From contig PYIY01000195.1 in NCBI GenBank assembly GCA_003635195.1, positions 13,961 to 77,960 of the forward strand: 64,000 bases of DNA, read 5' to 3'. Shown piece by piece: positions 13,666 to 58,795 of this stretch. Position 1 is the first letter of the stretch, and each line of letters opens with the position of its first letter. This DNA is from Candidatus Poribacteria bacterium (GTDB taxonomy: Bacteria; Poribacteria; WGA-4E; WGA-3G). The notes under the pieces were generated by a model. It was not told where the DNA came from, made no database searches, and saw only the letters and a program-made list of their open reading frames with translations. Both the position numbers and the translations under genes were made by a program.

Positions 13666-13901
13666 AGAAAACCACCAAGTATATGTGCGATTATCGTTGC
13701 TGGCCATAAGTAAACTATCGCAGTTTGCCACTTCCAATGAAGGATAAAGTGCCGAGCAACGATGTTAATTGTGATCGGAATATAGAGGCATCTGCTCCAC
13801 GGACGGCTGAATCGCTTGAACTGTCCACGAAAAAATCCGAAGGTGAAGTGAATCACAAAAGCCGCGAGGGAGATTAAGAGATTCAGATCAAAGTCTCTCA
13901 T
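13635..13901 (-). CDS. Small membrane protein, hypothetical
   Basis: 88 aa with 2 predicted TM helices. It is translationally coupled (ATGA overlap) to sco1 upstream. Confidence 0.4.
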   Translation of the reverse strand: MRDFDLNLLISLAAFVIHFTFGFFRGQFKRFSRPWSRCLYIPITINIVARHFILHWKWQTAIVYLWPATIIAHILGGFLGARYRNRSP

Positions 13902-14542
13902 TTTTTTAGGAGTGCTTTGATATCTCGCCGTAAACGCAGCATCGCGGGTTTGCTTCGACTATCGTAGAAGTCGTGAATGTTCCCATCCGCTTTGACGAGA
14001 ACAAACCGCGGACTATGGAGTATTTCGCTTCCTTTGTGGCCCGCGGCTAAACTAAATCCTTCTTTGGCTAATTGGTAGATCTGCGCTTTGTCGCCAGTGA
14101 GAAAGTGCCAACGTCTACTGTCTGCTCCATAAGCCGATGCGTAGCGGAAGAGGACCTTTGGTGTATCCCGCTCTGGATCTACGGAGAACGAGACGAAATA
14201 GACAAGGTCTGCAATAAATTCGGATTGTAGGCGCGCCATCTCTTGTGTCATCGCTGGGCAGATCGTTGGGCAATTGGTGAAGATGAAATCTGCGATCCAA
14301 ATTTTGCCTGCCATGTCGGATAGGCTTAACGACTGTCCTTGCTGATCCGTTAAATTAAAATCAGGTACGCGGGCTTCAACGAGCTTGGGAAGATTGGGCG
14401 ATTCCTCTAACTTCGTATCAAACGCCGACCACAAGTTAATCCCAGCGATAGTGATAATGATGACCCCGAGTCCTACCCAGATCAGGGTGCTTTTGTCAAA
14501 TTTGGGCCTCGTTTTAGCGGCATTATCGGCTTGTGCTTCCAT
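13898..14542 (-). CDS. sco1: SCO1/SenC family copper chaperone for cytochrome oxidase CuA assembly
   Basis: Thioredoxin fold with the CxxxC motif FIFTNCPTICP is present. N-terminal TM anchor is present. It sits in a cox cluster. Confidence 0.85.
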   Translation of the reverse strand: MEAQADNAAKTRPKFDKSTLIWVGLGVIIITIAGINLWSAFDTKLEESPNLPKLVEARVPDFNLTDQQGQSLSLSDMAGKIWIADFIFTNCPTICPAMTQEMARLQSEFIADLVYFVSFSVDPERDTPKVLFRYASAYGADSRRWHFLTGDKAQIYQLAKEGFSLAAGHKGSEILHSPRFVLVKADGNIHDFYDSRSKPAMLRLRRDIKALLKK

Positions 14543-18912: not shown

Positions 18913-19032
18913 TGAATGAAGATTAAAAAATTAATTCGGCAATTTCTTAGCGAAGTCCGGTGCGGTTGCAAACCGCACCTACCGGGCCTGGGAAGAATTA
19001 GAATTACCGATTTAAATACTGAAACTTCATAA
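18913..19032. repeat. MITE-like palindromic element (copy 2 of 1227..1345)
   Basis: gaatgaagattaaaaaattaattcggcaatttcttagcgaag-CCGGTGCGGTTgcaAACCGCACCTACCGGGCCTGG-gaagaattagaattaccgatttaaa. The terminal arms attaattcgg(t/c)aatt / aattaccgat are inverted repeats. Confidence 0.55.
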
Positions 19033-27099: not shown

Positions 27100-27215
27100 T
27101 CTTTTAATTTTCCTTGCGGTTCGGTCAGGTGAGTTCAGGGTTTGACGTTCCGTGACGTATATCTGAAGAAACACCCAAGCAATACGCAGAAATACCCAAG
27201 CAAAAACACCCTTTC
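27100..27215. repeat. 110-bp intergenic repeat, second copy (see 7955..8062)
   Basis: Near-identical to 7955..8062 (attttccttgcggttcggtcagg...gaagaaacacccaagcaatacgcagaaatacccaagcaaaaacaccctt). Confidence 0.6.
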
Positions 27216-37980: not shown

Positions 37981-38475
37981 TTAGACCTTCAAAAAGGAGC
38001 CTGGGTCGGTCCACTGCCCCTTCTCACCTAAAAACTTCACGGACTTATCAATTTCGATCTGACCATCTTCTGCCAATGTAATTTTAACGCGTTCAAGGGG
38101 TCGTGGTGCGGGGCCTTCGTAGTTAATACCTTCCCGGTCAAAGCCGCTGCCGTGGCAGGGGCATTTGAATTTGTTTTCAGAACCGAGCCAGCGCGGTGTG
38201 CATCCGAGATGTGTGCAAATGGTTAAGAGTGCATAGAATTCGCCATCCTGTTTCCGGACGATCCAAACACCGTAGGGTTCCTTTTTGTACTTTTCGCTAA
38301 CGCTGCCCGGCGGATACTCTGCCGGGAATCCTGCTTTAAAAATAGAGGACGGTTCAAACAGCACACGCGGATACAGATACCGAACCAGTCCTGGTCCCAA
38401 AGTCAGCCCCAGTGCTGCAGTGAAATTTCCCCAACCGAGGAATTTGAAAAATTTACGTCGAGATACCACTTCCAC
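37981..38475 (-). CDS. petC: Rieske [2Fe-2S] iron-sulfur protein
   Basis: N-terminal TM/Tat-like anchor is present. Rieske boxes CTHLGC and CPCHGS are present. Confidence 0.9.
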   Translation of the reverse strand: MEVVSRRKFFKFLGWGNFTAALGLTLGPGLVRYLYPRVLFEPSSIFKAGFPAEYPPGSVSEKYKKEPYGVWIVRKQDGEFYALLTICTHLGCTPRWLGSENKFKCPCHGSGFDREGINYEGPAPRPLERVKITLAEDGQIEIDKSVKFLGEKGQWTDPGSFLKV

Positions 38476-38690
38476 CCCCGATTTAGTAGATGAACGCTCA
38501 CGCGTCAGTTCTACAAAACAGCCTAATTTCTAATTTCAAACAAATACTATCAAAATCTTCTGATTTGAAAGTTATCCCTGCGCTGGTAAAACACACTCGC
38601 CAATCCGAGATTGGTTTGACTATACAAGGCACAAAATTCAGCCAATGCGATCTTGCACCGTGAGCGTTAAATATTATAACACGTCCTTAA

Positions 38691-38780
38691 AGATTTGTCA
38701 ACCAATTTTTTCAATTTTTTCACAGAATTTTGAAAAATTTTAGGGAAATGCTTCGTATTTTTTGATTCGCATCTCAATGG
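38691..38780. repeat. ~85-bp imperfect direct repeat, left copy (partner at 49850..49924)
   Basis: agatttgtcaaccaattttttcaattttttcacagaattttgaaaaattttagggaaatgcttcg...tctcaatgg versus agatttgtcaactattttcaatttccccatagaatttgaaaaactttaagaaaatgatttcactctctcaatgtg. Confidence 0.5.
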
Positions 38781-38923
38781 GGTTATATTACGCAGCAAAC
38801 ACAACAAATCAGATGAAATCAGCACAATTTTGTTCAATTTTCTGTCAATCTGTGCTACAATCTACTGCAGGAATATCTTGAGTCTTCAGAAAATTAACAA
38901 CTGATAAACAGAGGAGAATTAAA

Positions 38924-39700
38924 ATGACTCGCTTTACAATCAGTTTAATCATTGTAGTTTGTGTGTTTGTGCAACTCAGTAACGCTGAAATCGATCCGGA
39001 ATCTATTGTTGGTGCGTGGTTGTTTGATGAAACGAATGGAAAAGTTGCCGCAGATTCATCTGGCAACGATAACGACGGTAAGCTTGTCGGCGGTGCGAAA
39101 TGGGTGAAAGGTAAATTCGGCAACGCTATTGAACTCAATGGAAAGGACGCTTGGGTCACTGTCCCAGAGATCGGACCGCTTGAAGACTTTACGCTCATTA
39201 AATGGTTCAATTCAACAGGGAGAGTTGGCGCGTGGAGATGTTTTTTTAACCGCGACGGTTGGGCAGCGGGGTATGTCCATTATCAATTCCGACCCGATAA
39301 TAAGATGGAGATGGCTATTCACTCCAACAACCCTGTTCGTCATCCGGGTTGGCCCGATTCGGATTTTACAGCGGATAAGGGTATCTTGAATAAATGGTTT
39401 CATCTCGCGGTCGCTTATAGTAGCAACGAAGAATTTGTCCGCGTCTACTTCGACGGTGAACTGGATGCTGAGGGTAAATGGGGTCCCTTACCGGGCGCAT
39501 TTGGACCTGGACGCATCGGTTCATGGAGCGGCGGTGGTAGAGAGTGGGAAGGCATGTTCGATGAAATGATACTCTTCGATGTCGCACTTGAGGAAGATGA
39601 TATCCAGACGCTTATGGATAACGGTTTAGAAGCGGCACTATCAGTTGATCCCGTAGGTAAAGTCGCAACTATTTGGGGTACAATTAAGCAAGGCAGATAG
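38924..39700 (+). CDS. Secreted LamG/concanavalin-A-like lectin fold protein, paralog of 1380..2192
   Basis: GAGGAG SD. Signal peptide is present. WLFDETNGKVAADSSGNDNDGKLVGGAKWVKGKFGNAIEL is LamG_3-like. C-terminal KVATIWGTIK tail motif is present. Confidence 0.7.
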   Translation: MTRFTISLIIVVCVFVQLSNAEIDPESIVGAWLFDETNGKVAADSSGNDNDGKLVGGAKWVKGKFGNAIELNGKDAWVTVPEIGPLEDFTLIKWFNSTGRVGAWRCFFNRDGWAAGYVHYQFRPDNKMEMAIHSNNPVRHPGWPDSDFTADKGILNKWFHLAVAYSSNEEFVRVYFDGELDAEGKWGPLPGAFGPGRIGSWSGGGREWEGMFDEMILFDVALEEDDIQTLMDNGLEAALSVDPVGKVATIWGTIKQGR

Positions 39701-40231
39701 GGCCGCACAGCAGACGGTAATCTTTGGTAAATGTGCTTGGATAGAGATTACAGACTTAATTTGGTAATGTGCGGTGTTAATTGTCAGAATCAGGATTTAC
39801 AGGGTTCAAGGATTTTCAGGATTAGGGGGTATTCTGGAAGAAAACTTGCTTTCGACCAGATAAAGGTTCTCAAAACGGATGGACGCTTGTCTGCTTTAAG
39901 AACATTCATACCCCCAACAATCCCATAAATCCTACAATCTTGCCAATCTCGGTCTATCTGTGTTCAGGGGCATTTAGTTTTAAATATTCACTTTATTTCT
40001 CTGAATATACTTCTTCTGTAGGAGCGAGCTGTGCTCGCGATATTGCGTCCAAAATTTAACATCTGTTAACCAAAATCAAGATTGGAACCGAAAACTGAAT
40101 AGTCCTGATCTGCGTTAAACTTCATATATGATGAAACTACTTGATACTGTCGCACTTTTGGAAGATATACCCATACACAATTCTTTAGTCGGGTAGGAAA
40201 GATAGCTGTATAGAAGCACGAGGTCACAATT

Positions 40232-41788
40232 ATGAAATTAAGCACTGTCGAAGCTAAAAAACGCCCCTCCTTCAACTATATTGAATATTTTGAAACGCAG
40301 CTCTATTATCAATGCATCACGTGTTCAACGGTTGTAGAACCTGAAATGGGGTACTGTCGAGAATGCAATGCAGAGTTAAATCCAAATAATAGGCAGCAGC
40401 TATTTTGCTATGAGTGCAGAAAGCCAATCATCTACAAAAGAGACTATTTCATAAACAAAAAACACTTTGTCTCACACTATCCTGTTAATTACTTAGCATG
40501 CCAATGTCCAGGAAACCTCTGGATACCATTCATAAAAAATCAGAATTTTAGTGATCCTGCTACAGGATTAGTGAGGATCACAGTAGATAATATGTACATT
40601 TGGACTATTTGCTGTGCCGAATCTTCTCGATATAGCAATAATGAAGATATTTACTTCATTAATTGCCAACAGCAAGAAGATGATCTATTCCTAAAGCCCT
40701 ATATAAGATACAATATAGGAAAGACAAAATTATCTACATCAGAACGTAATGAATTTACTGGTAGATACTATAGAATATGCACGGATGTCATATCGTTAGG
40801 TATCAAATTGGGTATTTTAAGAGAATTAATGCGTGATGAAACATTTGCTAGGCGGGGGTGGGTTCGGTTAGAAAATCGGATACAAGAAATATTAGACTTT
40901 TCTGGAATATACTTTAGTAATGAGTTAATATCTAGCCTATTGGAAAATTGTTTTGCCAGATTACGGAGGCTTTTTAATCCAGCCCCCAAAGATAAAGAGA
41001 ACACTGTTGAACGATACAGAAATGACTTTCTCAAAACTTCTTACCCCAAAACACATAAGTTTGAACGTAAGAAATACGGGATCGCAAAACTAATTGGAAG
41101 GCTGAAAATATTAACAAACAAAAGTATATTACACGACGACATTGATTTTAACAGCAATATTTTCCTTGGAGATTGTCGAACCCTATTCGATTTCTACGAC
41201 GACACAGTTCTGAAAACTATAGATATCCTCAACAAGATGCACCGGTTCAAATTGTTCTTTAATCACGAAGACTCATTAAGGTCCTTAGGTTTACATAATA
41301 CTGGTGGAGAGATAGCACTGGCTTACTTGAGATTGGGAGATGAAGCCTTAACCGCATATAAACAAAAACAAGCACTCGAACTATTACGTTTTGACAACTA
41401 CATTGACAATGGAAACCTATCTCCTGAAGAACGTGAAAGTTATGAAAAGAAAAGAGATATTTATGAACGTAACCTTAACTCCTTCTTTGACCGCTGGATT
41501 ATCTGGGATCACCAAACATCTTTAAATATAATCCTTCCAGACGGTCAACATATTGAGATGCCCTATGGTTTCAAGAGTATGCGCCTCACAAAAACCCATG
41601 ATGGCGATTATATTATTTACATTAAAACCCCGGGTATTACCCTATGTCCTAATTACCGTATAGAGTACTTTGGCAATAACGAAAATTTCGCAAGACAGGT
41701 ATTTAGAGTAATTGATAAACAAAGGTATGAACACGAAACTATAGACTTAAGCAATTTCACATACGATTCCTCACTAACTATATTCTGA
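40232..41788 (+). CDS. Hypothetical protein with N-terminal multi-CxxC zinc-ribbon region, encoded in AT-rich DNA
   Basis: 518-aa ORF, about 36-38% GC against about 50% in the flanks. CITCSTV...CRECNAEL...CYECRKP Cys pairs are present. No recognisable catalytic motif. Confidence 0.5.
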   Translation: MKLSTVEAKKRPSFNYIEYFETQLYYQCITCSTVVEPEMGYCRECNAELNPNNRQQLFCYECRKPIIYKRDYFINKKHFVSHYPVNYLACQCPGNLWIPFIKNQNFSDPATGLVRITVDNMYIWTICCAESSRYSNNEDIYFINCQQQEDDLFLKPYIRYNIGKTKLSTSERNEFTGRYYRICTDVISLGIKLGILRELMRDETFARRGWVRLENRIQEILDFSGIYFSNELISSLLENCFARLRRLFNPAPKDKENTVERYRNDFLKTSYPKTHKFERKKYGIAKLIGRLKILTNKSILHDDIDFNSNIFLGDCRTLFDFYDDTVLKTIDILNKMHRFKLFFNHEDSLRSLGLHNTGGEIALAYLRLGDEALTAYKQKQALELLRFDNYIDNGNLSPEERESYEKKRDIYERNLNSFFDRWIIWDHQTSLNIILPDGQHIEMPYGFKSMRLTKTHDGDYIIYIKTPGITLCPNYRIEYFGNNENFARQVFRVIDKQRYEHETIDLSNFTYDSSLTIF

Positions 41789-42234
41789 CCAGTCGCGTAG
41801 GTTGGGTTGAACGGATACCCCCAAACCCTGATAGATCGGCAGGAGAATGAGTTTTCCATAGATGTTAGGTCAGACAAAAACCAAGTGAAACCCAACATTT
41901 TTGCTGATGGTCTGAAGTTGGGTTTCACTGCGTTCTTGATTTCGGATGCCAATATGTTAAATTTACGTGTATTTGGTGCAGCACATCTATTTTCTCAGTT
42001 CCGTTCAACTTGGGGGAGACACCCAAGCAAAACACCTACGCGGCTGTCAACGGCTAAAATTACGGATTTTTCACCGCCTTTCTGTCTAGCGGAATATAGC
42101 GAAATGCCGCGACAGTTGTAAAGGTTACTGCCAATCGACTGTAAGAATATGCCACCTTTCCTGTGGCTGTCGCCGCGGAGGATTTTCGTTTCTATACACC
42201 TGTCGCACGACTGGTACTAAATACGTCCCGATGG

Positions 42235-45200
42235 CTATTGAAAATCAAGCACTTCATCAATCTCTGCCATAATCCGCAGCGTTTCTCCTACTGCAACCAA
42301 AATTCCAGAATACTGCCGCACCTCCGCATGGGTTAACGCCGTGTTTTTTCTATCCTGCAACCACTTCTTACACACCTGATACGCCCCAATCTTATATTCC
42401 CACACCTCAGCAGGTACATCCGTGAAATGTTGATCGTCATTAATCCAAACGTGTCCACCCGCATAGCGAACTTTTGAGACAACGGCATTGCCTTCACCTT
42501 CAAACCGATGTAGCGGTGAAATCTGTACATCTTTCAAAAGATGCCAATCAATCAAATTCTGCCCCAACGCTGCAAGTTTTCGGAAGTATTCAATATCTTG
42601 CGGCAAAGGGATATATGGAAATCCATATTTCAAAAACTCATAGTAACTTTCACGATAGATAGGGCTATAAAGATGGGCGTAGATATAGGCGATAATTTCC
42701 TCTGATGAAACGCCTTGAGGGGGTTTTGATAATGCAGTTTGCGGCAAATCGAATTTTTCTGAGAGCACTTTAAGGAAATCAGGGTTGAAATTATGTTGGC
42801 GTTCTGTTGTCAATTCTGCCCTATTGGGATCCTCATAAATATAGAGCGGGAATACGTGTACAGACTCACTTGATCCACTTGAGAGATAACAATTCTCTGT
42901 AATTTCGTCGGTTATTAAAATATGTTGCCACTGCTTGCCTCCTTTGACTATACGACAGACACAAAGAGCAATATTTTCGTTTAGCAAATGAGGCATAATA
43001 TCATTGCGTGGACTCGTGTGAAATCCGCAGGATCGTCCAGTATAGTAGGTTTTACGAACATCAAAAGGACGGTGTCGAATAGGTACAATATACTGTTTTG
43101 CATTGGAGTGGTCGCGGAGATCTTGTTGTGCCAGATGGACTTTCCAATATCGGTTGTCCAAATCATATTTTTTCTGCACCTCGTTTTCGGAGAGTGACAC
43201 AAAGTTTTGTACAGTCTCGCGTAACGTATTCTCTGTGCGATGAATAGTTACTTCGTTACGTCCGGTGACAATTCCGCTTGAACCGGACTGGAAAATCTCA
43301 TTTAGCTGCCATCCATGTTTGTATATTGCCTCGCGGTTTGGGACAGAATCTTGAGGGACAAAAAGGTAGAGCGGAGATGCGGGATGCAATTCACACCAAT
43401 CAGTTTTTTGGACATCAGTTTCCAAAAGTGTTCTATATTTTTCCTCTCGATTTCCCCACATATCCGCGTAGTAGCATGTTGCTTTGCCCGGAGTGCTGCT
43501 TTCTTTGACGCATAATAGAATCGCAACCCCCACTTCTATGTCAAATACGTTCTGATCCTCTTTTCCATCTGGAATAGCTTCCTCTACTATTATACTGCCG
43601 TGCAAATTAAGTAGGTATATGGAGTCAAAACTGTCTAATAAACTCTGCCGCATCCTACGAAAAGTTAAACCGTCAAGGAAGCTATTATTCACAATGTAAC
43701 CAACAACACCTTCGCCATTTTTATCAATTCGCCACTGTGCCCACCGGATAAACTTAACATAATCGGATTGCAGTGATTTTTTCTGGTCCCAGATCCCCAA
43801 CAGTTGTCCATCTACTGGTTTGTAATCCTCAATGAGCTGTCCAATAAAAGTTGGTTGGTCATCATTATCGCTACTCGGATTTGCCGAGGCTAGGGGATAG
43901 GGTGGATTACCAAGAATGACGAGGAGTGGTTCGTCCCGCTTTACTGAAACCGCTGCATTTGCCTCATCAGAGATAAATCCTGCAAAAGGTAAACGTTGCT
44001 CGCGCTCTATAGGTTCCTCTAACGTATTAGTAAGATAGACGCGGAGACGTTCGGTTGCCTGCCATCCTTGCGCTTGTAGAAACAGACTCAACTTCAGATG
44101 TGCAATCGTATAGGGTGCAACCAACAACTCAAATCCGAAAAGTCGTTTGACCAATTGTGCATTGATATACCGGTTCCAGTCGCCTGTACCGTAGGTCGTT
44201 GTGACGTATTCACGGATGTGGTCAAGTACTGCAAAAAGAAAACCTCCGGTGCCCGTCGCGGGATCAAGAATGAGCGTGTTGTCATCGGAAAGCCCATCAG
44301 ATCTGTTAAGTGCTGTCTTGAGCAAAACATCAACAGATCGAACAATGTAGGAGATAACCTGTGGCGGTGTATAATAGACCCCGCGTTCCACGCGCAGCTG
44401 CGGGTCATATTCAGCAAGAAATGTCTCATAGAAATGGATCACTGGATCTTCAAGATGAGTTCTCGCAATAAACGCCGTGCGAAGCATCTCTGTAGGGACA
44501 TTTTGAAGAAGGTTTGCAATGTCCTCCAAAATATAAGTAATGTTTGCATTAAGATTTGGCGAATCTATTTGGTGGAAAAGTTGTCGCAAAAATGGATTTG
44601 ACTGCGGGAGCGCGCTGGCGGCAGTTTCTCGTGAGAAGTTTGTCGCGTTAGGTAACGCGCAGCGTGCAGCGAAGAGTCCATACGCTAGTGTCTGTGCGTA
44701 CATATCCGCAAACTTGCCAGGAGTCAATGTAGAGAGGAGAAGTTCCTTAAAGGCCGAGAACATCGCGTAGGTGTCGCTGTTTTCATCGGTGAGCCTCGTT
44801 TCGATTTGTGTTTGGAGTTCACGGGTTCGGCGTGCAAGATGCTTCGCGAGTGCCTCCGGAGTGGTGATTTGCATGGAGCCCGCACTGAAAAATCCATCTA
44901 ACAGGCTTTCCAGATTTTCAATTCCGTTGTCAATTAGTGCTATCGCGCGCGATGTCCCATTCGTATATAACCGAAACTCCACGAAATTGGTGAGGATAAA
45001 GTTATCAAGGTTCTCAATAAAACGTTCATTCTGCACCTTGGCGTGCCCAGTGAGTGCATCAAGGTTCCTGCCATAAGCCTCCGCCTCAATATAACCGAGA
45101 GGGAATAGACCTTCTCTGACAACAAAATCCGGTCTGCCGATTTCTAACTGTCGCGGCTCGTGGGTAATCCTGATAGTATATTCTAAAAGTTCAGCGGTCT

Positions 45201-45314
45201 GTTCCAAAAAGTCTTTGAGATGTCCGTGTAAGGAGAGTTCAGCGGTAGCATCGCCCTGTTCTCGGGTCTGTTGGATGTTTTGCCTGTACGTTCTACAAAT
45301 CTGTTGAAATAACA
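42235..45314 (-). CDS. MmeI-family (Type IIL) single-chain restriction-modification enzyme homolog: N-terminal PD-ExK-like domain + N6-adenine DNA methyltransferase + TRD
   Basis: MTase motif I ILDPATGTGGFLFAV and motif IV LGNPPYP are present. The N-terminus GRPDFVVREGLFPLGYIEAEAYGRNLD...LTNFVEFRLY parallels MmeI GFVDLFWPGILLIEMKSRGKDLD...LVCDFQRFRLT (from memory). Start taken as MLFQQIC at 45314 (GGAG SD); the ORF track extends to 45432. Confidence 0.75.
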
Positions 45315-45499
45315 TTAGGCTCCTTTTTAATTCAGATAGTTTTAGAATCGAATATAAATCGCGTTTGTCCTCTCTACTACCAGTACTATTTGTTGAAAAT
45401 GAAAACAGTTGATAATGTTTTGGTAACAACAATACATTAAAACCCTAAGTATGGTAGTGGTATCTGAACGAGCTTTAACTCTGTTCACTGTTAGGAATA

Positions 45500-47449
45500 T
45501 TATCTTCCCCGATTGAGATCTTCAACAGTTTTCTTGATACCTCTTGCAATATTTGTAAATGCCTCATCCTGATTTTCCCATAGCGTCACAGCCTTCACAC
45601 CTCTCGGTAATGCCTGAAGTTTACCAAAGGGTGCCTCTTCCCAATCAACAGGACGCAGTATTATAGGAATTACCCGGGCCTCTCCGACACTGTGTCGTTC
45701 CATAGCACGCTTCATTTCAATATCATAACAATAATCGGATGCAAGGAAATCAGCACTAACAAGCAGAAGTATTATGTGAGCAGTATTCAAGTGTTCATGA
45801 ATCTCTCCTTCCCATTCTCTACCAGCACTTATTTTCCGATCATGCCAATCTGTAATAACTCCCTGTCTTCTCAAAATGGAGAGGTGGTTCTCAAGTTGTT
45901 CTCGTAACTCCTCATCTCTGTGGGAATAAGAATAAAAAAGCTCAACCCCACCCGGTTGCGATCCTGAACCGATTGTTTGATCCTGTTGTTCTTGAATTAA
46001 ATTGGATAAATACTCCCTCTCTGCAATCATTTGGAGAAACGAACCCTCTGGTAATGGAAGAAAAGGATCATCATGTATTGCTTGCATTCTGCGGATGGCG
46101 GCCTCCACTTGTTCACCATGTCGATGACAGACTTTCCAAACTTTCTCCACCTTCTCTTTTTCACTCGTCCCAGGTATATAATCAATGAGATCAATTAACT
46201 CATTGAGCATCTTATAATAAAAATTATCATAATTTAGCGCAGTAAAGTGCTTTGCTTGGCGAACATAATCAATCAGCGTAGTTCTGACTTCATCCTTCCC
46301 AACACCTTCCTTAATAAAATCAAACGTGTAAATACCACTGTCATCTACATCATCTAATTCCGAGCCATAAGCGGCAAATCTTCGATCTATACATTGCGAA
46401 CAACCACCACAATGAGTTGCTTGGCCTGTATGTTGAAGTGTTTGACTGCAAGACACTGTGCTTGTGATCAAATCCTCTCGTCCAGCTTCAGATAGAATCT
46501 GGTAGATTTCTGTTTTGGTTTTCCATAAGAAAGGGGTGGCGATTTTAACTTTCGGTTCATAGATTGTTGCAAAGAAATTCTCAAGACACATTATCGTTTT
46601 TGGATGTGTCGTCCGGCTAGCTCTTGCATTCATCAGATCTTGTCTCTTTGGAAAGTTAATCGAAGTGATTCCATTTTCATAAACAAAAATCTCCCTCTGG
46701 GAAAGAGCATGTGACAAAGCGTAAGCGATAGCAGTATACAAAAAAGAACGAGTTCGTTGCGTTTCCTCCCTCGCTCGAATTTGGCGTAAACTACAATAAA
46801 ATTTGTAATGTCTGATCCGATTCGGATAACGTTGATGAAGTGCTCTAACTAACTGGTCCTGTGTTCTTGCAGTCTCTGGCTGACCAGAACGGTGACTAAT
46901 GAGGCAGAGTTGATCAGAAGAATTTTCAAGACAGTCAACAATCCCAGCCAAGGAATCAAGTCCTCCTGAAAAAAGAATCACTTTTGTATTTTGCTGGGGT
47001 TCAATTTGAAACGTTTCCTGATCAAACAAGTTTGTCGGGTCAGTTGAGTGCCCGGATTGAAAAGAGAAATGATACGTCTGATCGCCGGACATAAAGACGA
47101 GTGTTTCTTTGAGTCTTTCCTTGACATCAGCCCTATCCCAGAAAGCAAAATCTCGAACTTTAATGACAAAGTAAAATGACCTTGCCCAACTATGGGACTC
47201 TACACTGGCTTTATTTCCACGAGAGGTTAACCTATCGGCACAAAAAACATAGGCAGCAATCTCTAACAAATCAAGGATACGATCAGGAAAATGAGATACA
47301 TAGTGTATAAAACTAGGCAGGCCAAGTTTTACATTTGGGATCTTGTTGGAAAATTCTCGATATTCAAGGACTAAATTATCATCTTGAGCCCATTGCTGAG
47401 GTGGATCTGCACCATTACATAGTACAATTCGTGGAGGGACATCTCTCAC
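45500..47449 (-). CDS. Fusion protein: unknown N-terminal domain + QueC-like PP-loop ATP pyrophosphatase domain + C-terminal TIR domain
   Basis: PP-loop KVILFSGGLDSLAGI is present. The QueC-type C-terminal Zn motif reads LWKTKTEIYQIL...STVSCSQTLQHTGQATHCGGCSQCIDRRFA; compare E. coli QueC LMWIDKAETW...[21 protein letters not shown]. The final ~140 aa are a bacterial TIR domain (LFYSYSHRDEE...W...LLLVSADFLASDYCYDIEM with the conserved Glu). Confidence 0.7.
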   Translation of the reverse strand: MRDVPPRIVLCNGADPPQQWAQDDNLVLEYREFSNKIPNVKLGLPSFIHYVSHFPDRILDLLEIAAYVFCADRLTSRGNKASVESHSWARSFYFVIKVRDFAFWDRADVKERLKETLVFMSGDQTYHFSFQSGHSTDPTNLFDQETFQIEPQQNTKVILFSGGLDSLAGIVDCLENSSDQLCLISHRSGQPETARTQDQLVRALHQRYPNRIRHYKFYCSLRQIRAREETQRTRSFLYTAIAYALSHALSQREIFVYENGITSINFPKRQDLMNARASRTTHPKTIMCLENFFATIYEPKVKIATPFLWKTKTEIYQILSEAGREDLITSTVSCSQTLQHTGQATHCGGCSQCIDRRFAAYGSELDDVDDSGIYTFDFIKEGVGKDEVRTTLIDYVRQAKHFTALNYDNFYYKMLNELIDLIDYIPGTSEKEKVEKVWKVCHRHGEQVEAAIRRMQAIHDDPFLPLPEGSFLQMIAEREYLSNLIQEQQDQTIGSGSQPGGVELFYSYSHRDEELREQLENHLSILRRQGVITDWHDRKISAGREWEGEIHEHLNTAHIILLLVSADFLASDYCYDIEMKRAMERHSVGEARVIPIILRPVDWEEAPFGKLQALPRGVKAVTLWENQDEAFTNIARGIKKTVEDLNRGR

Positions 47450-48231
47450 TTCTTACTGCTCTCCCGTTGTAATTCCTCACGCATCTTTCCAAAAGCGTGC
47501 CATAAAAATCCTTGAACCTCTTTTTTGCTAGGAATACCTTTTTTCGTATGTTGATTAAACCAACCTGCTGCGAAAGACTGTGTAATCTTCGCTGTTTCAA
47601 AGGCATTTGAAGAAATAGCATCAATGTGTTTTTCAAGATACTGCCCAAATTTAATTCGTTCATCAATACTACCTAAAGCTGCAGAAATTTCTCTTTCCAA
47701 AAAATACTCTAAATACCCCTGTGTAAATTTTCCGAAAAACAGACGCGATAATTCACAGAATCCCGCACCATTCCCTGCTTTACGCCATACTTCAAAAGGA
47801 TCTTTCAATGAATCCAAAAGACTAAGTGAATTCACGTGATTTTGATCATACCAAATAGAAATTGCTTCACTAGCAGCCTTTTGGGCAATTCCACTATATT
47901 CAAAAGAATCTTTTTGAGATGCAACATAAGCATTGACAGCTTTCGCAAAAGAAAGTGGTGTTGGATTATTAGGAAGTTCAATCCCAATATCCAACAACCA
48001 AACTTGTGGGTTTTCTTCACGCGAAGCAACAGCAAGATTGACTAGGAATTGAAACGTACCCAAAACACCACTATCTCGCTCAATATGACGAAATCGTGAT
48101 CTAACATTCTGAATTGTCTTTTGCGTAATATCCTCGATTTCAGTATCAGATACATGCCTTCCAGCAATCTGTTCAAAAATATCTCGCCACTTTTTCGTTT
48201 GGGGAAGAACAGACATTCGTTCATGACCCAT
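47446..48231 (-). CDS. Hypothetical 261-aa protein translationally coupled to the QueC-TIR gene (ATGA overlap)
   Basis: AT-rich coding ORF with no recognised domain. A possible R-x4-H (RSRFRH) motif is present. Confidence 0.5.
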   Translation of the reverse strand: MGHERMSVLPQTKKWRDIFEQIAGRHVSDTEIEDITQKTIQNVRSRFRHIERDSGVLGTFQFLVNLAVASREENPQVWLLDIGIELPNNPTPLSFAKAVNAYVASQKDSFEYSGIAQKAASEAISIWYDQNHVNSLSLLDSLKDPFEVWRKAGNGAGFCELSRLFFGKFTQGYLEYFLEREISAALGSIDERIKFGQYLEKHIDAISSNAFETAKITQSFAAGWFNQHTKKGIPSKKEVQGFLWHAFGKMREELQRESSKK

Positions 48232-48372
48232 TACTTGATCTCCATATCACAATTTCTTATCGGATTCCCTTATTCCTTGCGTATATTGACAAGGACTTTC
48301 CTTTCTGGCTTTAGCTATCAGAAATCAGAGCCAGTTGTTGACTCCGTGTGGTTCAACAGCATAAGTCCACCT

Positions 48373-49293
48373 TTAATCTTGGTTTTTGACAAGAACTACC
48401 TTAATAGCAGATAAACCTCTATCCGTATGATGGATGTCAAATTTCACTTTTTGACCTTGTTGAAGCAAATTGACTTTTTCATTCAAAATTTGTGACTCAT
48501 GCACAAATATATCCGGATCATGTTCCTCACACGTTATGAAGCCGTACCCTTTGATTGTGTCGAACCATTTTACCTCTCCTTGTGTCCGGATTAAAAGCGG
48601 CGAAATTTCTCTTTCGATCATTTTAACGGCTTTTGAAAATGGAATCTGAAAAAATTCTCTATCCATTCGTATTCGATAATCACTCAGTAGTTTGAAAACG
48701 AGATTTTCTGCCTCTTTGGCATCTTCCACTTCAAAAACTGCTTTTGCAGAATACGGTATTAACACACCTGTTGCTGAGTTTATCTCCTTAACTCTGTCTT
48801 CTACAGAACGAGTAGTCATTCCGATCTTTAGAACATCAGGTTCATCTTTCCTTGACAAAATATACAACCAACCATGTTTCCCCTGAGAGACACGAATTTT
48901 TCTATGATTTTTCCAATGACTAAGGTAGGTCGGAAGGGTCCCGCTAATCAAAGTCCCACGTATCAAAAGTGCTTGTTCAAAATCACGTCCCTTTAGACTT
49001 TCCCGGAGCTTAACTAATAGGGAAACAATGGAATTCATTTCACTTCTAGGCGGATGGCCAAGTCTATCATAGACAGTAAACCAATTCCATTGGTCTTTCC
49101 TTAATGACCGATTAAACATACCTTTCAGTTCTGAAATAGCATCCAAATCTACCTGGTCTGGAGGAATTCCATCACTTAAAAAAAGAGATACAACATCTAC
49201 GGCATTATCAAAACGTCTTCTCATAGTTACCGACAAATCTGACATTCCAAATCCATATTTATGTATAGTCATCGGCGTTATCTTCTTTATCAA
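48373..49293 (-). CDS. T5orf172/MUG113 (GIY-YIG superfamily) domain protein with C-terminal cold-shock (CspA-like S1) DNA-binding domain
   Basis: GWLYILSRKDEPDVLKIGMTTRSVEDRVKEINSATGVLIPY...REFF matches T5orf172. The C-terminal GEVKWFDTIKGYGFITCEEHDPDIFVHESQI...GQKVKFDI is a cold-shock domain. Confidence 0.65.
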   Translation of the reverse strand: MIKKITPMTIHKYGFGMSDLSVTMRRRFDNAVDVVSLFLSDGIPPDQVDLDAISELKGMFNRSLRKDQWNWFTVYDRLGHPPRSEMNSIVSLLVKLRESLKGRDFEQALLIRGTLISGTLPTYLSHWKNHRKIRVSQGKHGWLYILSRKDEPDVLKIGMTTRSVEDRVKEINSATGVLIPYSAKAVFEVEDAKEAENLVFKLLSDYRIRMDREFFQIPFSKAVKMIEREISPLLIRTQGEVKWFDTIKGYGFITCEEHDPDIFVHESQILNEKVNLLQQGQKVKFDIHHTDRGLSAIKVVLVKNQD

Positions 49294-49384
49294 TCTTGGT
49301 TTGGTGTATTTGAAGCGGCTACTGCCAGTCTGTCATCAGAATCAAACTATGGTACAGGGTCATTACAATTTTAAGAAATTATAG

Positions 49385-49835
49385 AGTTTCTTGTCCTTTT
49401 TCAGGATCCGGTGCGGTTAGGAAACCGCACCATAGGTGTCAATTTAGTGATTTTCACGATGTTTTTGTAGCATCATCTCTTCAAATGCTGCAGAAATCCG
49501 CAGAAATACCCAAGCAAAGACACCTATCAAAAACCCCCTACGGGGCTTAGATGTGTGAGGTCCCGTTTTTCTACAGAGATGCTTAAAGAAATACCCAAGC
49601 AAATAAACCCTACGGGATTCAAGAGGTTTTTGAAGTCTTCAAGATTTCCGCGTAGTATCCGGTTCGGTTAGGAAACCGAACCTACCGGGCCTGGATACCC
49701 AAGCAGTTATTTTTTCTAAAATTGACACCTATGGTGCGGTTAGGAAACCGCACCTACCGGGTCTGGGAGTCTAAAATTGGACGAAAAAACCGAGAACTGA
49801 ATAGCTCTGGACTATGGTATAAAACATTGACTATT
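49385..49835. repeat. Composite cluster of modular repeats (three hairpin modules, two CCCAAGCAAA modules); homologous to 58310..58700
   Basis: GGTGCGGTTAGGAAACCGCACC occurs at 49410 and 49733. The variant GGTTCGGTTAGGAAACCGAACC occurs at 49661. gcagaaatacccaagcaaagacacctatcaaaaaccccctacgggg occurs at 49500. About 80-90% identity to the 58.3-58.7 kb copy. Confidence 0.6.
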
Positions 49836-49849
49836 ATCTCAAATCTCCA

Positions 49850-49924
49850 AGATTTGTCAACTATTTTCAATTTCCCCATAGAATTTGAAAAACTTTAAGA
49901 AAATGATTTCACTCTCTCAATGTG
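49850..49924. repeat. ~85-bp imperfect direct repeat, right copy (partner at 38691..38780)
   Basis: See 38691..38780. Same orientation. Together they bracket the AT-rich accessory segment. Confidence 0.5.
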
Positions 49925-49946
49925 AAAATTCTTCACCTAAAAACAT

Positions 49947-50579
49947 TCAAAAAAGGGTGAGTCTCGGTGTTTCGGATGCGTCTTGTAGTTTTTGTGCTGC
50001 CTCGGCAATATCATCAACGAGGATTTGACGCATTGCGGTGAAATCCTCACCTTCTTGTCGTAGGATATAAGCCGGGTTAAACGTTGCCATAGCAAAGGGT
50101 GCGTACTGGGTATCTGTAAACCAGATGCCGCGTTCTTCCGTGATGCGGAAACCTCTGTGAATCAGCACTTTCGCTGCGGGTGCACCCATGCAGAGAATCA
50201 CCGAAGGTTGTATGAGGGTGAGCTCTCCATCAAGCCATTTGGAGCAGGCTTTAATCTCTGATGCTTTCGGTGGGCGGTTTTTCAATACACCCCCTTTAAG
50301 CCCTGCTGCTCGGCACTTAATAATGTTGGTGAGCCAGATGTCCCTGCGCGTTAAGTCGTTTATTGTCAGCACTTCATCAAGCAAATCCCCAGTAGGTCCT
50401 GAAAACGGCAATGTTGTGTGATTATCTGCAGCGGAGGGTCCCTCTGCAACAAGTACCAATTTCGCAGCGGCATCCCCACTGCCGAAAACGACGTTCGCAC
50501 GGGTTTTCGCTAAGTCACAATCCGTACAAACGCTGGCGCGCGCTTTGAGAGTGTGCATTTGTGTATGAACAGTGCTCAT
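49947..50579 (-). CDS. Uracil-DNA glycosylase, family 4-like
   Basis: CTDCDLAKTRANVVFGSGDAAAKLVLVAEGPSAADNHTTLPFSGPTGDLL matches the family-4 UDG N-terminal consensus (C..C.L...R...VfG.G....lm.vGEaPG...d..G.PF.G..G.LL). Confidence 0.75.
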   Translation of the reverse strand: MSTVHTQMHTLKARASVCTDCDLAKTRANVVFGSGDAAAKLVLVAEGPSAADNHTTLPFSGPTGDLLDEVLTINDLTRRDIWLTNIIKCRAAGLKGGVLKNRPPKASEIKACSKWLDGELTLIQPSVILCMGAPAAKVLIHRGFRITEERGIWFTDTQYAPFAMATFNPAYILRQEGEDFTAMRQILVDDIAEAAQKLQDASETPRLTLF

Positions 50580-58179: not shown

Positions 58180-58309
58180 TAGATTCTATGTCCTTTTTAT
58201 ATACGAGTTTGAAAGTAACCCTTTAATATTTCTATGTTGTTATTATAAGCGAGAATCTCTGAAATGTCAACCGAATAGCGGATGTGTAATAGAACCATTC
58301 AATTCTCCA

Positions 58310-58700
58310 TTTTCCGATCGAATCTTCACCACCAGGCCCGGTAGGTGCGGTTTTGCGGTGTACCATAGGTGTCAATTTAGCGATTTTCACGGTATTTTAG
58401 CAAGTGTGGATATAAACATGCTGAAGAAATACGCAGAAACACCCAAGCAAAGACACCTATCAAAAACCCCCCTACGGGGCTTAGGAGACGGAGGAGATAT
58501 ATTTCTATAAACATGCTGAAGAAACACCCAAGCAAATAAACCCTACGGGACTGCAGAGGTTTTTTGAAGTCTTCAAGGTTTCCGCGTAAGATCCGGTTCG
58601 GTGTTTTTGCTGGGGTGTTTCTTCTAGGAAACCGAACCTACCGGCCTGGGGATCTAAAATTGGATTAAAAAACCGAGAACTGAATGGTTCTGGCTTGAAA
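58310..58700. repeat. Composite modular repeat cluster, second copy (see 49385..49835)
   Basis: It contains an inverted-orientation hairpin-module fragment caggcccggtaggtgcggtt. Two CCCAAGCAAA modules are present. One hairpin has a reverse-orientation CCCCAGCAAAAAC module inserted in its loop (58595..58660). Confidence 0.6.
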
Positions 58701-58795
58701 TAAAATTGATTTGACAATATATCATGACTGTGGTAAAATATATGTGTTAAGGAAATAGAAAAGTTCTGTCCGACTCAAAAACAGGAAAAGGACCT

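What the first reader, a model, noticed from the sequence alone, without database searches (positions are those of the whole stretch)
38691..49924. AT-rich ~11-kb accessory segment bracketed by imperfect 85-bp direct repeats
Two same-orientation copies of a motif (agatttgtcaac..attttcaattt...agaatttgaaaaa.ttta.g.aaatg...tctcaatg) lie at 38691-38780 and 49850-49924. The first is just after the Rieske gene, the end of the respiratory supercluster. The second is just before the UDG gene. Between them lie a LamG gene, an AT-rich Zn-ribbon ORF, the MmeI-like RM gene, the QueC-TIR operon and a 450-bp block of modular repeats. GC drops visibly to about 36-40% at 39.9-42.1 kb and 47.4-49.3 kb, against about 50% elsewhere. 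This pattern fits an integrated or horizontally acquired defense island with duplicated boundary sequence. No integrase or tRNA is seen.
Basis: seen in the sequence. Interest (0 to 1): 0.6.

Follow-up and report, generated by a model that had tools for sequence, protein, structure and literature searches.

The report
Defence island with copied core promoter
A 10-kb AT-rich block of anti-phage genes fills a variable slot between two conserved genes in a sponge-symbiont (Poribacteria) genome, and its supposed boundary repeats are a respiratory-operon promoter plus a copy of it facing into the defence genes, so this is an ordinary island with one neat twist.

Summary
The two repeats are real. The core is 38690-38753 vs 49849-49908, 51/60 identical, with no other copy in the window. 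They are not island boundaries.

Comparison with about 90 Poribacteria loci shows that the variable segment is 39732-49946 (10.2 kb, GC 40.7% vs 47.7%). It lies between the stop codons of the convergent core genes UDG and LamG. LamG is a core gene, not cargo.

The left repeat is the near-invariant sigma-70 promoter of the Rieske/cytochrome b operon (A/T tract + TTGACA-17-TATAAT, minus strand). It is present in genomes with and without the island and lies about 1 kb outside it. The right repeat is a roughly 100-nt paralogue of that promoter (TTGACA-16-GATAAT). It sits just inside the island's UDG edge and points into the defence genes.

The slot is a hotspot: 23 of 36 relatives are empty and 13 carry varied cargo. 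The island here is a mosaic:
- a type IIG RM gene paired with a Poribacteria-only zinc-ribbon ORF;
- a QatB-like + QatC-TIR pair;
- a T5orf172-CSD gene;
- REP-like repeats.

The Qat-like pair shows 93-99% identity tracts against 75-86% flanks, which indicates recent recombinational exchange. No integrase or tRNA is present.

Verdict: the island is an ordinary core-flanked defence hotspot. The copied promoter and the QatC-TIR variant are the interesting parts.

The parts
37981..38475 (-). Rieske [2Fe-2S] gene, the first gene of a Rieske / cytochrome b (N and C parts) / multihaem cytochrome c operon. Core gene.
   Evidence: Pfam Rieske hit, 6.8e-12. Operon content comes from the annotated orthologous locus L083. 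It is 93-99% aa conserved in relatives.
38672..38779 (-). Left repeat: the promoter region of the Rieske operon. It consists of an A/T-rich tract with the dyad TTTTCAAAATT-N8-AAATTGAAAA, the -35 box TTGACA (38701-38696), a 17-nt spacer and an extended -10 box TG-TATAAT (38678-38673). It lies outside the island.
   Evidence: 12/12 consensus match, the best in 38.4-50.1 kb. It is one of only five sites matching at 11/12 or better in the 64-kb window. It is near-invariant across 29 orthologous intergenic regions.
38924..39700 (+). LamG / concanavalin-like gene, a core gene convergent with UDG in relatives. It is not part of the island.
   Evidence: Pfam Laminin_G_3 hit, 1.4e-18. Orthologues at 82-93% aa lie next to UDG in 36 loci. 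GC is 47.5%.
39732..49946 (.). The true variable segment: a 10.2-kb composite defence island in the UDG/LamG hotspot.
   Evidence: Breakpoints against empty-site relatives L001, L002, L005-L008, L011, L015 and L018. GC is 40.7% with a tetranucleotide anomaly.
39732..40231 (.). Decayed left edge. It holds a dispersed 45-nt motif (39780-39825) and a truncated DUF4926 pseudogene (about 40110-40180).
   Evidence: BLAST hits to other loci. An intact DUF4926 lies upstream of the DZR gene in L085 and L090. Read directly from the sequence.
40232..41788 (+). 518-aa ORF with an N-terminal double zinc ribbon, from a Poribacteria-only family. It always lies tail-to-tail with the type IIG RM gene. This is the most AT-rich part of the island (35.7% GC).
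   Evidence: Weak Pfam DZR hits. 42 homologues, all Poribacteria, with no Pfam domain. The conserved pairing with the RM gene is seen in L085, L090 and L091/L092. The AF2 model was poor, pLDDT 53.
41807..42121 (+). 104-aa ORF of uncertain reality. The DNA is 80% conserved in L030.
   Evidence: Only a marginal PADLOC hit.
42235..45432 (-). Type IIG restriction-modification enzyme (N6 methyltransferase + Type_ISP_C specificity domain). The real start is probably near 45330-45357. The specificity region, about 42780-43980, is hypervariable.
   Evidence: PADLOC REase_MTase_IIG hit, 4.5e-240; Pfam. Orthologues lie directly next to UDG in L012, L020, L026, L028 and L030. Specificity-region identity is 57-68%, against 83-94% for the rest of the gene.
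45500..47449 (-). QatC-like (QueC-family, PP-loop SGGLDS) protein fused to a C-terminal TIR domain.
   Evidence: NCBIfam QatC hit, 2.5e-58 but below the curated cut-off. PADLOC QatC 3.2e-50 and ThsB1 TIR 4.8e-64. PDB QatC 9vlk, 2.6e-23. Sequence shown.
47446..48231 (-). QatB-like partner of 261 aa. Its invariant N-terminus is M-G-H-x-R...LP....W. It overlaps the QatC-TIR gene by 4 nt.
   Evidence: AF2 model with pLDDT 82.9. Foldseek finds QatB chains 9y01_A/9y02_A at probability 0.96-0.97 and TM 0.51-0.54.
48373..49272 (-). T5orf172 (GIY-YIG-like) + cold-shock-domain protein, a candidate defence gene. The start codon ATG is at 49272-49270.
   Evidence: Pfam T5orf172 and CSD hits. PADLOC PDC-S57, 1.3e-21. 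The start was set by comparison with L004.
49300..49830 (.). Block of REP/MITE-like hairpin repeats (GGTGCGGTTAGGAAACCGCACC...). It belongs to a family dispersed through Poribacteria genomes.
   Evidence: Copies in the window lie at 1271-1306, 8025-8057, 18956-18993, 27178-27210 and 58291-58693, and there are copies in many loci.
49833..49924 (-). Right repeat (R): a paralogous copy of the Rieske promoter region. It has the -35 box TTGACA (49860-49855), a 16-nt spacer and an extended -10 box TG-GATAAT (49838-49833). It sits inside the island, 23 nt from the UDG stop, and faces the defence genes.
   Evidence: 11/12 consensus match. Alignment to the left repeat and its orthologues. It is present at the same place in L085 (96% identical) and L083/L084, partly in L004, and absent from empty sites.
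49947..50579 (-). Family-4 uracil-DNA glycosylase, the core gene flanking the island on the right. Cargo starts within 0-15 nt of its stop codon in all occupied relatives.
   Evidence: Pfam UDG hit; NCBIfam UDG_fam4. 80 orthologous loci. Breakpoints.

Best explanation
The segment contains two separate things.

(1) Window 39732-49946 is a composite, AT-rich anti-phage island. It lies in a hypervariable slot between the convergent 3' ends of two core Poribacteria genes, family-4 UDG and a LamG-domain gene. It carries no integrase, transposase or tRNA. Its modules are gained, lost and swapped by recombination with DNA from other Poribacteria, using the conserved flanks and resident modules as homology. 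Insertion sequences add occasional noise. This mechanism is inferred.

The modules are:
- an older type IIG RM gene paired tail-to-tail with a Poribacteria-specific zinc-ribbon ORF;
- a two-gene QatB-like + QatC-TIR unit that has been exchanged recently between lineages;
- a T5orf172-CSD gene;
- REP-like repeats.

(2) The 'direct repeats' are promoter DNA read on the minus strand. The left copy is the conserved sigma-70-type promoter of the core Rieske/cytochrome b operon, made of an A/T-rich upstream tract, TTGACA, a 17-nt spacer and TG-TATAAT. It lies about 1 kb outside the island. The right copy is a roughly 100-nt paralogue of that promoter at the UDG-proximal edge of the island. From there it would transcribe T5orf172-CSD, then the QatB-like gene, then QatC-TIR, and possibly RM.

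Shown: the coordinates, the indel, the hotspot, the conservation, the homology of the two copies, their orientation relative to the genes, and the high-identity exchange tracts.

Inferred: that both copies fire as promoters, that the right copy arose by ectopic duplication of the left one, and that exchange is by homologous recombination.
For: Boundaries. Homology to nine empty-site relatives ends at the UDG stop (49945-49949) and resumes at 39699-39731. Composition changes exactly there, and LamG is core-like.

Hotspot. Of 36 loci with UDG and LamG, 23 have a 27-293 bp spacer and 13 have 1.5-8.9 kb of cargo. The cargo includes type IIG RM, N6_N4 methyltransferases, IS630/IS4 transposases, an HD protein, PD40 propellers, an ECF-sigma fusion and a peptidase. 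Occupancy is patchy on a flank tree, and the window's nearest neighbours are empty.

Promoter.
- The two repeats are the two best sigma-70 matches in 11.7 kb (12/12 and 11/12, both with an extended -10 TG). They are two of only five sites at 11/12 or better in the 64-kb window.
- The left copy is the conservation peak of the LamG-Rieske spacer across 29 orthologues (alignment).
- The upstream tracts of the other strong promoters are unrelated, scoring 12-19 against 45 for the repeat pair.

Right copy (R).
- It sits at the same island edge in the window, in L085 (96% identical) and in L083/L084, and partly in L004.
- It is absent from empty sites and from relatives that carry RM only.
- It is absent upstream of the same Qat-like module in other genomic contexts (L086-L089).
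- R shares the distal CATTGAGA stretch, which is otherwise seen only in the Rieske promoters of the window's own clade.

Exchange.
- Window vs L085: 96-99% identity from the UDG stop to the QatC/TIR linker, against 82-86% in UDG.
- Window vs L083: 93-97% across exactly the QatB-like + QatC-TIR genes, against 75-83% flanks.
- RM is at flank-level identity, with a 57-68% specificity region.
Against: - No transcription data exist, and Poribacteria promoters have never been mapped. Promoter function rests on the consensus match and on conservation.
- How a roughly 100-nt promoter copy was placed at the island edge is unexplained. No repeat, insertion sequence or junction signature was found.
- R in L083 is only about 75-78% identical to R in the window. 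R is therefore old, and its origin by intragenomic duplication rather than transfer cannot be dated.
- The RM module's flank-level divergence fits long vertical residence with repeated loss. The island is therefore not simply 'recently acquired'.
- The genome-wide copy number of the motif in the source genome could not be checked.
Confidence: 0.8

Rival explanations
1. The repeats are attL/attR, or a target duplication, of an element integrated by a site-specific recombinase.
For: There are two same-orientation imperfect repeats about 11 kb apart around AT-rich defence genes.
Against: - The left copy is present at the same place in about 45 relatives, including all empty sites.
- The indel boundaries are 39732 and 49946, not the repeats.
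- LamG, which lies between the repeats, is a core gene.
- There is no integrase, transposase or tRNA.
- The repeats are only about 85% identical, with indels.
- Genomes that lack LamG (L016, L081, L082) keep an RM remnant between UDG and the promoter. They arose by other deletions, not by R x L recombination.
Confidence: 0.03
2. The shared 45-60 nt are mainly an operator for a dimeric transcription factor (dyad TTTTCAAATT-N8-AAATTGAAAA centred near -50). On this reading the duplication puts the defence operon in the same regulon as the cytochrome bc operon. A passive UP element would be the lesser part of the story.
For: The dyad is conserved in the orthologous Rieske promoters and retained in R of the window, L085 and L083. 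Conservation extends well beyond the -35 box.
Against: - No regulator has been identified.
- The tract is A/T-rich, as an UP element is.
- The TGTGA of the left copy is not kept in R (TATGG).
- This rival modifies the best explanation rather than replacing it, because both need the promoter-copy interpretation.
Confidence: 0.25
3. The similarity is chance, or convergence of two strong A/T-rich promoters, with no common descent.
For: Both copies are A/T-rich and contain consensus hexamers that selection could create independently.
Against: - With the hexamer excluded, the upstream alignment scores 45, against a maximum of 34 in 5000 shuffles.
- The three other near-consensus promoters in the window score 12-19 against either copy.
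- The similarity also covers the distal CATTGAGA stretch and the discriminator region.
Confidence: 0.03
4. The whole island is ancestral at this locus and inherited vertically. Its patchy distribution reflects loss only, with no horizontal exchange.
For: RM is about 77% identical to RM in L012, L020, L026, L028 and L030, which is similar to the flank divergence. RM remnants occur in L004, L016, L081 and L082.
Against: - The QatB-like/QatC-TIR tract is 93-99% identical to that of L083 and L085, while the flanks are 74-86%.
- The tract ends differ between the two comparisons and fall at module or domain boundaries.
- The window's nearest neighbours on the flank tree are clean empty sites.
- A strong compositional anomaly persists.
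Confidence: 0.08

Closest known systems
Core-gene-flanked defence hotspots (for example Pseudomonas aeruginosa cDHS1/cDHS2, PMC10250203)
   Same: Conserved core genes flank a slot that is empty in some genomes and filled with different, mostly defence, cargo in others. The composition is atypical and the slot has no dedicated integrase.
   Different: - The phylum is different: uncultured sponge symbionts.
- The slot is tiny, 27-33 bp between two convergent stop codons when empty.
- The comparison here is across species-level genomes, not strains.
- Some of the cargo is not defence (PD40 propellers, an ECF-sigma fusion).
Integrase-borne genomic islands with attL/attR direct repeats at tRNA genes
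   Same: Direct repeats lie near an AT-rich accessory block.
   Different: There is no integrase and no tRNA, and the repeats are not at the junctions. One repeat is core DNA present in empty sites.
Strong sigma-70 promoters with an A/T-rich UP element (E. coli rrnB P1 type; from general knowledge, not tested here)
   Same: There is a consensus -35 box, a 16-17 nt spacer, an extended -10 box and an A/T tract from about -40 to -60.
   Different: The organism is one in which promoters are uncharacterised. The tract also contains a dyad that could be an operator. No transcription data exist.
QatABCD anti-phage system (QatB-QatC core unit; PMC13279940, PMC13376578)
   Same: - The QueC-family protein matches the QatC models and solved QatC structures.
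- The upstream helical partner has a disordered N-terminus that begins Met-Gly, followed by conserved Pro and Trp.
- That partner's best structural match is QatB.
   Different: - There is no QatA ATPase and no QatD TatD nuclease.
- QatC is fused to a TIR domain, and in relatives outside Poribacteria to a DpnII/MboI-like nuclease.
- The NCBIfam QatC score of 198 bits is below the 280-bit cut-off.
- The partner has no sequence match to QatB.
Thoeris (ThsB TIR + ThsA effector)
   Same: The TIR domain scores 4.8e-64 against the PADLOC ThsB1 model.
   Different: There is no ThsA-type effector (SIR2, Macro or SLOG) in the island. The TIR is fused to a QatC-like enzyme.

Membership tests
Integrase-mediated genomic island (att-flanked) | Tyrosine or serine recombinase gene in or next to the island | tested here: not met
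   No such domain occurs in any island ORF (Pfam, NCBIfam, PADLOC).
Integrase-mediated genomic island (att-flanked) | Direct repeats exactly at the two junctions, with a single copy at the empty site junction | tested here: not met
   The junctions are 39731/39732 and 49946/49947. The left repeat is about 1 kb away and is present in all empty sites. The right repeat is absent from empty sites.
Integrase-mediated genomic island (att-flanked) | Insertion at a tRNA or tmRNA gene | tested here: not met
   ARAGORN finds no tRNA or tmRNA in the 64-kb window.
Core-gene-flanked defence hotspot | The same conserved flanking genes across many genomes | tested here: met
   p865-UDG on one side and LamG-Rieske-cytochrome b on the other side in 36 loci.
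Core-gene-flanked defence hotspot | The slot is variably empty or filled with different cargo | tested here: met
   23 loci are empty (27-293 bp) and 13 are occupied (1.5-8.9 kb) with different gene sets. The window carries 10.2 kb.
Core-gene-flanked defence hotspot | Cargo dominated by defence systems | tested here: inconclusive
   Defence-type cargo includes type IIG RM, N6_N4 methyltransferases, QatC-TIR, T5orf172/PDC-S57 and an HD protein. The slot also holds PD40 propellers, an ECF-sigma fusion, a metallopeptidase and insertion sequences.
Sigma-70 promoter with upstream A/T element | -35 and -10 hexamers at 16-18 nt spacing | tested here: met
   TTGACA-17-TATAAT (12/12) and TTGACA-16-GATAAT (11/12), both with an upstream TG.
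Sigma-70 promoter with upstream A/T element | Conservation of the elements in orthologous regions | tested here: met
   The hexamers and the discriminator are near-invariant in 29 orthologues, while the surrounding spacer varies. R keeps them in three lineages.
Sigma-70 promoter with upstream A/T element | A mapped transcription start, and activity that depends on the elements | not testable with these tools
   No transcript data are available. This needs 5'-RACE, a metatranscriptome or reporter fusions.
QatABCD | QatC: a QueC-family PP-loop enzyme with Qat-specific extensions | tested here: inconclusive
   NCBIfam QatC gives 2.5e-58, but 197.9 bits is below the 280-bit cut-off. PADLOC QatC gives 3.2e-50 and PDB QatC gives 2.6e-23. 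The SGGLDS motif is present.
QatABCD | QatB partner with an essential N-terminal Met-Gly motif and a helical core | tested here: inconclusive
   The N-terminus MGHxR..LP....W is invariant in 34 homologues. The fold match to QatB has probability 0.96-0.97 and TM 0.51-0.54, but E is 0.24-0.28. There is no sequence match.
QatABCD | QatA ATPase and QatD TatD-like nuclease in the operon | tested here: not met
   Neither domain is in the island, nor next to the module in L083 or L085-L089.
Thoeris | ThsA-type effector next to the TIR protein | tested here: not met
   No SIR2, Macro or SLOG protein is present. The TIR is the C-terminal domain of the QatC-like protein.
Type IIG restriction-modification | A single polypeptide with nuclease, gamma-class N6 methyltransferase and specificity domains | tested here: met
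   PADLOC REase_MTase_IIG gives 4.5e-240. Pfam finds N6_Mtase, Eco57I and Type_ISP_C.

The most novel reading that the evidence does not exclude
The mobile core of the island is an undescribed two-gene branch of the Qat family. In this reading, a QatB-like protein with an invariant N-terminal Met-Gly is the substrate of a QatC-like enzyme. That enzyme carries its own effector domain: TIR here, and a DpnII/MboI-like nuclease in relatives from other phyla. N-terminal (deazaguanine-type) modification would then directly gate a TIR NADase. In this Poribacteria clade the pair is expressed from a captured copy of the respiratory Rieske-operon promoter.
Probability: 0.4. Interest if true: 0.7.

Novelty: new member of a known kind. 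Interest (0 to 1): 0.42.

Why it matters
- For genome annotation: a pair of direct repeats around AT-rich genes is not enough to call an integrated element. Here one 'repeat' is a housekeeping promoter, and the true boundaries are a kilobase away.
- For Poribacteria biology: the work defines a reusable landmark, the UDG/LamG slot next to the cytochrome bc operon, where defence genes turn over by recombination among uncultured sponge symbionts. It also gives the first strong promoter candidates for this phylum.
- For phage-defence research: the cargo includes a widespread QatB-like + QatC-effector fusion (about 1300 partner homologues). This could make the open question of how the QatBC reaction restricts phage (PMC13279940) directly testable, because the output domain is attached to the enzyme.

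Tried and rejected
- The exact-protein look-up of UDG found nothing.
- Rfam on 38.3-50.1 kb gave only one sub-threshold miRNA hit, so there is no known RNA in either repeat or in the repeat block.
- The metagenome scan with a degenerate motif gave only two hits. Both are orthologous Rieske promoters of the L016 type, so it told us little about copy number.
- PDB sequence searches gave nothing for the QatB-like protein or for the DZR ORF.
- The AF2 model of the DZR ORF was too poor (pLDDT 53) to search with.
- I considered a CRP- or FNR-type site in the shared tract and rejected it. TGTGA is not kept in R, and the half-sites do not fit either consensus.
- I considered R x L recombination as the origin of the LamG-less genomes and rejected it, because an RM remnant remains between UDG and the promoter.
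- I considered that R is part of the mobile Qat-like module and rejected it. The module in L086-L089 has unrelated upstream DNA, and R in L083 lies outside the high-identity tract.
- I considered an assembly artefact and rejected it, because independent assemblies (L083/L084, L085, L004) reproduce the junctions.
- A literature search for QueC-like proteins with a TIR domain found nothing.

Full report
**1. Checking the observation**

The two sequences are at the stated coordinates and in the same orientation. A local alignment gives a core of 38690-38753 vs 49849-49908, 51 of 60 positions identical with two small indels. Its score is 61. The best score of the left copy anywhere else in the window is 32, and the maximum in 2000 shuffles is 30. 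No third copy exists in the 64-kb window.

The gene content between the copies is as described: LamG, a zinc-ribbon ORF, a type IIG RM enzyme, a QueC-TIR protein with an upstream partner, a T5orf172-CSD protein and a block of hairpin repeats. GC and tetranucleotide composition are anomalous from about 39.7 to 49.9 kb. There is no tRNA and no recombinase domain.

**2. What the repeats are**

Read on the minus strand, both copies contain the two best sigma-70-type promoter matches in the 11.7-kb region:
- TTGACA-17-TATAAT (12/12, with an upstream TG) at 38701..38673;
- TTGACA-16-GATAAT (11/12, with TG) at 49860..49833.

Only five sites in the whole window reach 11/12. The repeat consists of the -35 box plus about 50 nt of A/T-rich DNA upstream of it, with patchy similarity through the -10 box and discriminator.

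The Rieske gene (37981-38475) is on the minus strand. It is the first gene of a Rieske / cytochrome b / multihaem cytochrome c operon. The left copy is therefore that operon's promoter region, not the end of the cluster.

Across 29 orthologous LamG-Rieske spacers, the stretch 38735-38660 is the conservation peak, and the hexamers and the following ATTTAACGCTC are nearly invariant. The upstream tracts of the three other near-consensus promoters in the window are unrelated to it. They score 12-19, whereas the left and right copies score 45 against each other with the hexamer excluded. The maximum in 5000 shuffles is 34. The similarity is therefore common descent, not promoter convergence.

**3. 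Where the island really is**

The UDG protein retrieved 80 orthologous loci, all Candidatus Poribacteria. Protein and nucleotide comparisons show the common arrangement: p865, UDG, LamG (convergent with UDG), a spacer of about 450 bp, Rieske, cytochrome b.

In nine relatives with an empty site, homology to the window runs to 49945-49949 (the UDG stop codon is 49947-49949) and resumes at 39699-39731 (the LamG stop codon is 39698-39700). In L003, L005 and L018 the two stop codons are only about 30 nt apart. The variable segment is therefore 39732-49946, or 10.2 kb.

LamG is core. It is present in 36 loci at 82-93% amino-acid identity and has a GC of 47.5%, against 40.7% for the island. The left repeat is about 1 kb outside the island. 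Its orthologue is found in about 45 loci regardless of occupancy. The right repeat (R) lies inside the island, 23 nt from the UDG stop, and is absent from every empty site. This rules out attL/attR or a target duplication.

**4. The slot is a hotspot**

Among 36 loci with both flanking genes, 23 have a spacer of 27-293 bp and 13 carry 1.5-8.9 kb. The cargo differs between loci:
- the same type IIG RM gene (L012, L020, L026, L028, L030);
- N6_N4 methyltransferases;
- IS630- and IS4-type transposases;
- an HD-domain protein;
- PD40 propeller proteins, an ECF-sigma fusion and a metallopeptidase.

In all occupied loci the cargo starts within 0-15 nt of the UDG stop. On a neighbour-joining tree of the p865-UDG flank, occupancy is patchy and the window's nearest neighbours (L003, L018) are empty. 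A second, less used insertion zone is the LamG-Rieske spacer (L012, L018, L027). In L027 a transposase gene splits the promoter's upstream tract.

**5. The island is a mosaic with different histories**

Closer relatives were found through homologues of the QueC-TIR protein.
- L085 carries the same composite island: UDG, R, REP repeats, T5orf172/CSD, partner gene, QatC-TIR, RM, DZR, DUF4926, LamG.
- L083/L084 have UDG, R, about 320 bp, partner gene, QatC-TIR, RM, LamG. They lack T5orf172-CSD and DZR.
- L004 has a decayed version with IS630 copies and an internally deleted RM.

Sliding identity shows the following.
- Against L085, identity is 96-99% from the UDG stop, R included, to about 46080 (the linker before the TIR domain). 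UDG is 82-86%, the TIR part 77-80% and DZR 77-85%.
- Against L083, identity is 93-97% over about 48100-45650. That is exactly the partner + QatC-TIR genes. UDG is 78-83%, R about 75% and LamG 82-85%.
- RM sits at flank-level identity (77-81% overall). Its specificity region (about 43980-42780) is hypervariable at 57-68%.

The Qat-like pair has thus been exchanged recently between lineages. The tract ends fall in homologous neighbouring DNA, which is the signature expected of homologous recombination. RM looks like an old resident that has been lost repeatedly, since remnants survive in L004, L016, L081 and L082.

The zinc-ribbon ORF belongs to a family of 42 proteins found only in Poribacteria. 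It is always tail-to-tail with the type IIG gene, even in unrelated contexts (L090 between two diverged IS3 copies; L091/L092).

**6. Origin and role of the right copy**

R occupies the same position in the window, L085, L083/L084 and (its distal half) L004, whatever lies downstream of it. It is not found in relatives where RM abuts UDG. It is also not found upstream of the same Qat-like module in other contexts (L086-L089), where different promoter-like DNA is present. R is therefore not intrinsic to the mobile module.

R shares with the left copy the distal CATTGAGA stretch. That stretch is otherwise conserved only in the Rieske promoters of the window's own clade. The simplest reading is an ectopic duplication of about 100 nt of the neighbouring core promoter, which now heads the co-directional defence genes. 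The mechanism of that duplication is unknown.

The shared tract contains an imperfect dyad (TTTTCAAATT-N8-AAATTGAAAA). It could be an UP element, an operator or both. If it is an operator, the defence operon would be co-regulated with the cytochrome bc operon.

**7. The cargo**

The 649-aa protein combines two parts:
- a QatC-like QueC-family domain (PADLOC 3.2e-50; NCBIfam QatC 2.5e-58 but below the curated cut-off; solved QatC structures 2.6e-23; PP-loop SGGLDS present);
- a TIR domain (PADLOC ThsB1 4.8e-64).

The overlapping upstream 261-aa gene starts MGHERMSVLPQTKKW. In 34 homologues M1, H3, R5, L9, P10 and W15 are invariant and G2 is nearly so. Its AF2 model (pLDDT 82.9) is helical with a disordered N-terminus. 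The only structural matches with TM above 0.3 are QatB chains of the QatB-QatC complex (probability 0.96-0.97, TM 0.51-0.54, E 0.24-0.28).

Published work shows that QatB-QatC is the minimal functional unit of QatABCD. It also shows that QatB's N-terminal Met-Gly motif is essential, and that the way the reaction restricts phage is unknown (PMC13279940).

Here QatA and QatD are absent and QatC carries an effector domain. Relatives in other phyla carry a DpnII/MboI-like nuclease instead of TIR. I found no paper describing a QueC-like protein fused to TIR. This is a lead, not a demonstrated system.

**8. Verdict**

There is an accessory, compositionally foreign, horizontally exchanged defence island, and it is the largest filling of a Poribacteria hotspot. 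It is not bracketed by its repeats and was not integrated through them.

The repeats are a conserved respiratory-operon promoter and a captured copy of it at the island's edge. As a kind of thing, the island is a new member of a known class, the core-flanked defence hotspot. The promoter copy and the QatB-like/QatC-TIR pair are the parts worth a follow-up.

Noticed in passing
window 47446-48231 and 45500-47449 (minus strand): A two-gene unit: a QatB-like protein with an invariant N-terminal Met-Gly, plus a QatC-like enzyme fused to TIR, with no QatA or QatD. The partner family has about 1300 homologues. Relatives outside Poribacteria replace TIR with a DpnII/MboI-like nuclease. No description was found in the searchable literature.
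   Followed up: partly
window 49300-49830; also 1271-1306, 8025-8057, 18956-18993, 27178-27210, 58291-58693: A mosaic of REP/MITE-like hairpin repeats (GGTGCGGTTAGGAAACCGCACCTACCGGG...). The family is dispersed through the window and through many Poribacteria loci, often next to promoters. One example is the repeat upstream of the near-consensus promoter at 58711.
   Followed up: partly
window 40232-41788 with 42235-45432; L085, L090, L091, L092: A Poribacteria-only 518-aa zinc-ribbon ORF is always tail-to-tail with the type IIG RM gene, in four different genomic contexts. This suggests a functional pair. Its structure could not be predicted with confidence.
   Followed up: partly
window about 42780-43980: The specificity (Type_ISP_C) part of the type IIG enzyme is only 57-68% identical to L083 and L085, while the rest of the gene is 82-94%. 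This is the pattern expected of swapping of the target-recognition domain.
   Followed up: partly
window about 46080 (the QatC/TIR linker), compared with L085: The 96-99% identity tract shared with L085 ends at the linker before the TIR domain, and the TIR part is only 77-80% identical. Recombination therefore shuffles the effector domain separately from the enzyme domain.
   Followed up: partly
window 40110-40180: A truncated DUF4926 pseudogene (MMKLLDTVALLEDIPIHNSLVG*). The intact gene precedes the zinc-ribbon ORF in L085 and L090.
   Followed up: partly
window 39780-39825: A short dispersed motif (CAGGATTTACAGGGTTCAAGGATTTTCAGGATT) has copies in unrelated places in L031, L042 and L065.
   Followed up: no
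window 38643-38660 (minus strand, 5' leader of the Rieske operon): A small hairpin followed by a T-rich run lies just downstream of the predicted start, within a conserved leader of about 190 nt. It could be a regulatory or attenuator element. Covariation is not obvious.
   Followed up: no
L027 13251-14597: A DDE_Tnp_1 transposase gene is inserted inside the upstream tract of the Rieske promoter and splits the motif. The two halves overlap by about 7 nt, possibly a target duplication.
   Followed up: no
L016, L081, L082 (and probably L013): These lineages lack LamG. A 60-aa remnant of the type IIG gene abuts the Rieske promoter, which shows that RM was once present and was removed by deletions that also took LamG.
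   Followed up: partly
L086 10076-12884: Three tandem LamG paralogues lie between the Qat-like pair and the Rieske promoter. L086 and L087 have no UDG at this locus but still keep the Qat-like pair next to the Rieske operon.
   Followed up: no
L090 5801-6631 vs 11938-12204 and 13448-13941: The DUF4926-DZR-RM module is flanked by direct repeats of about 0.8 kb (87-94% identical) and by two diverged inverted IS3 copies. This is a possible vehicle for moving the module between loci.
   Followed up: no
window 2351 (+), 58270 (-), 58711 (+): Three further near-consensus sigma-70 promoter matches (11-12 of 12). These are candidate strong promoters in a phylum with no mapped promoters.
   Followed up: no
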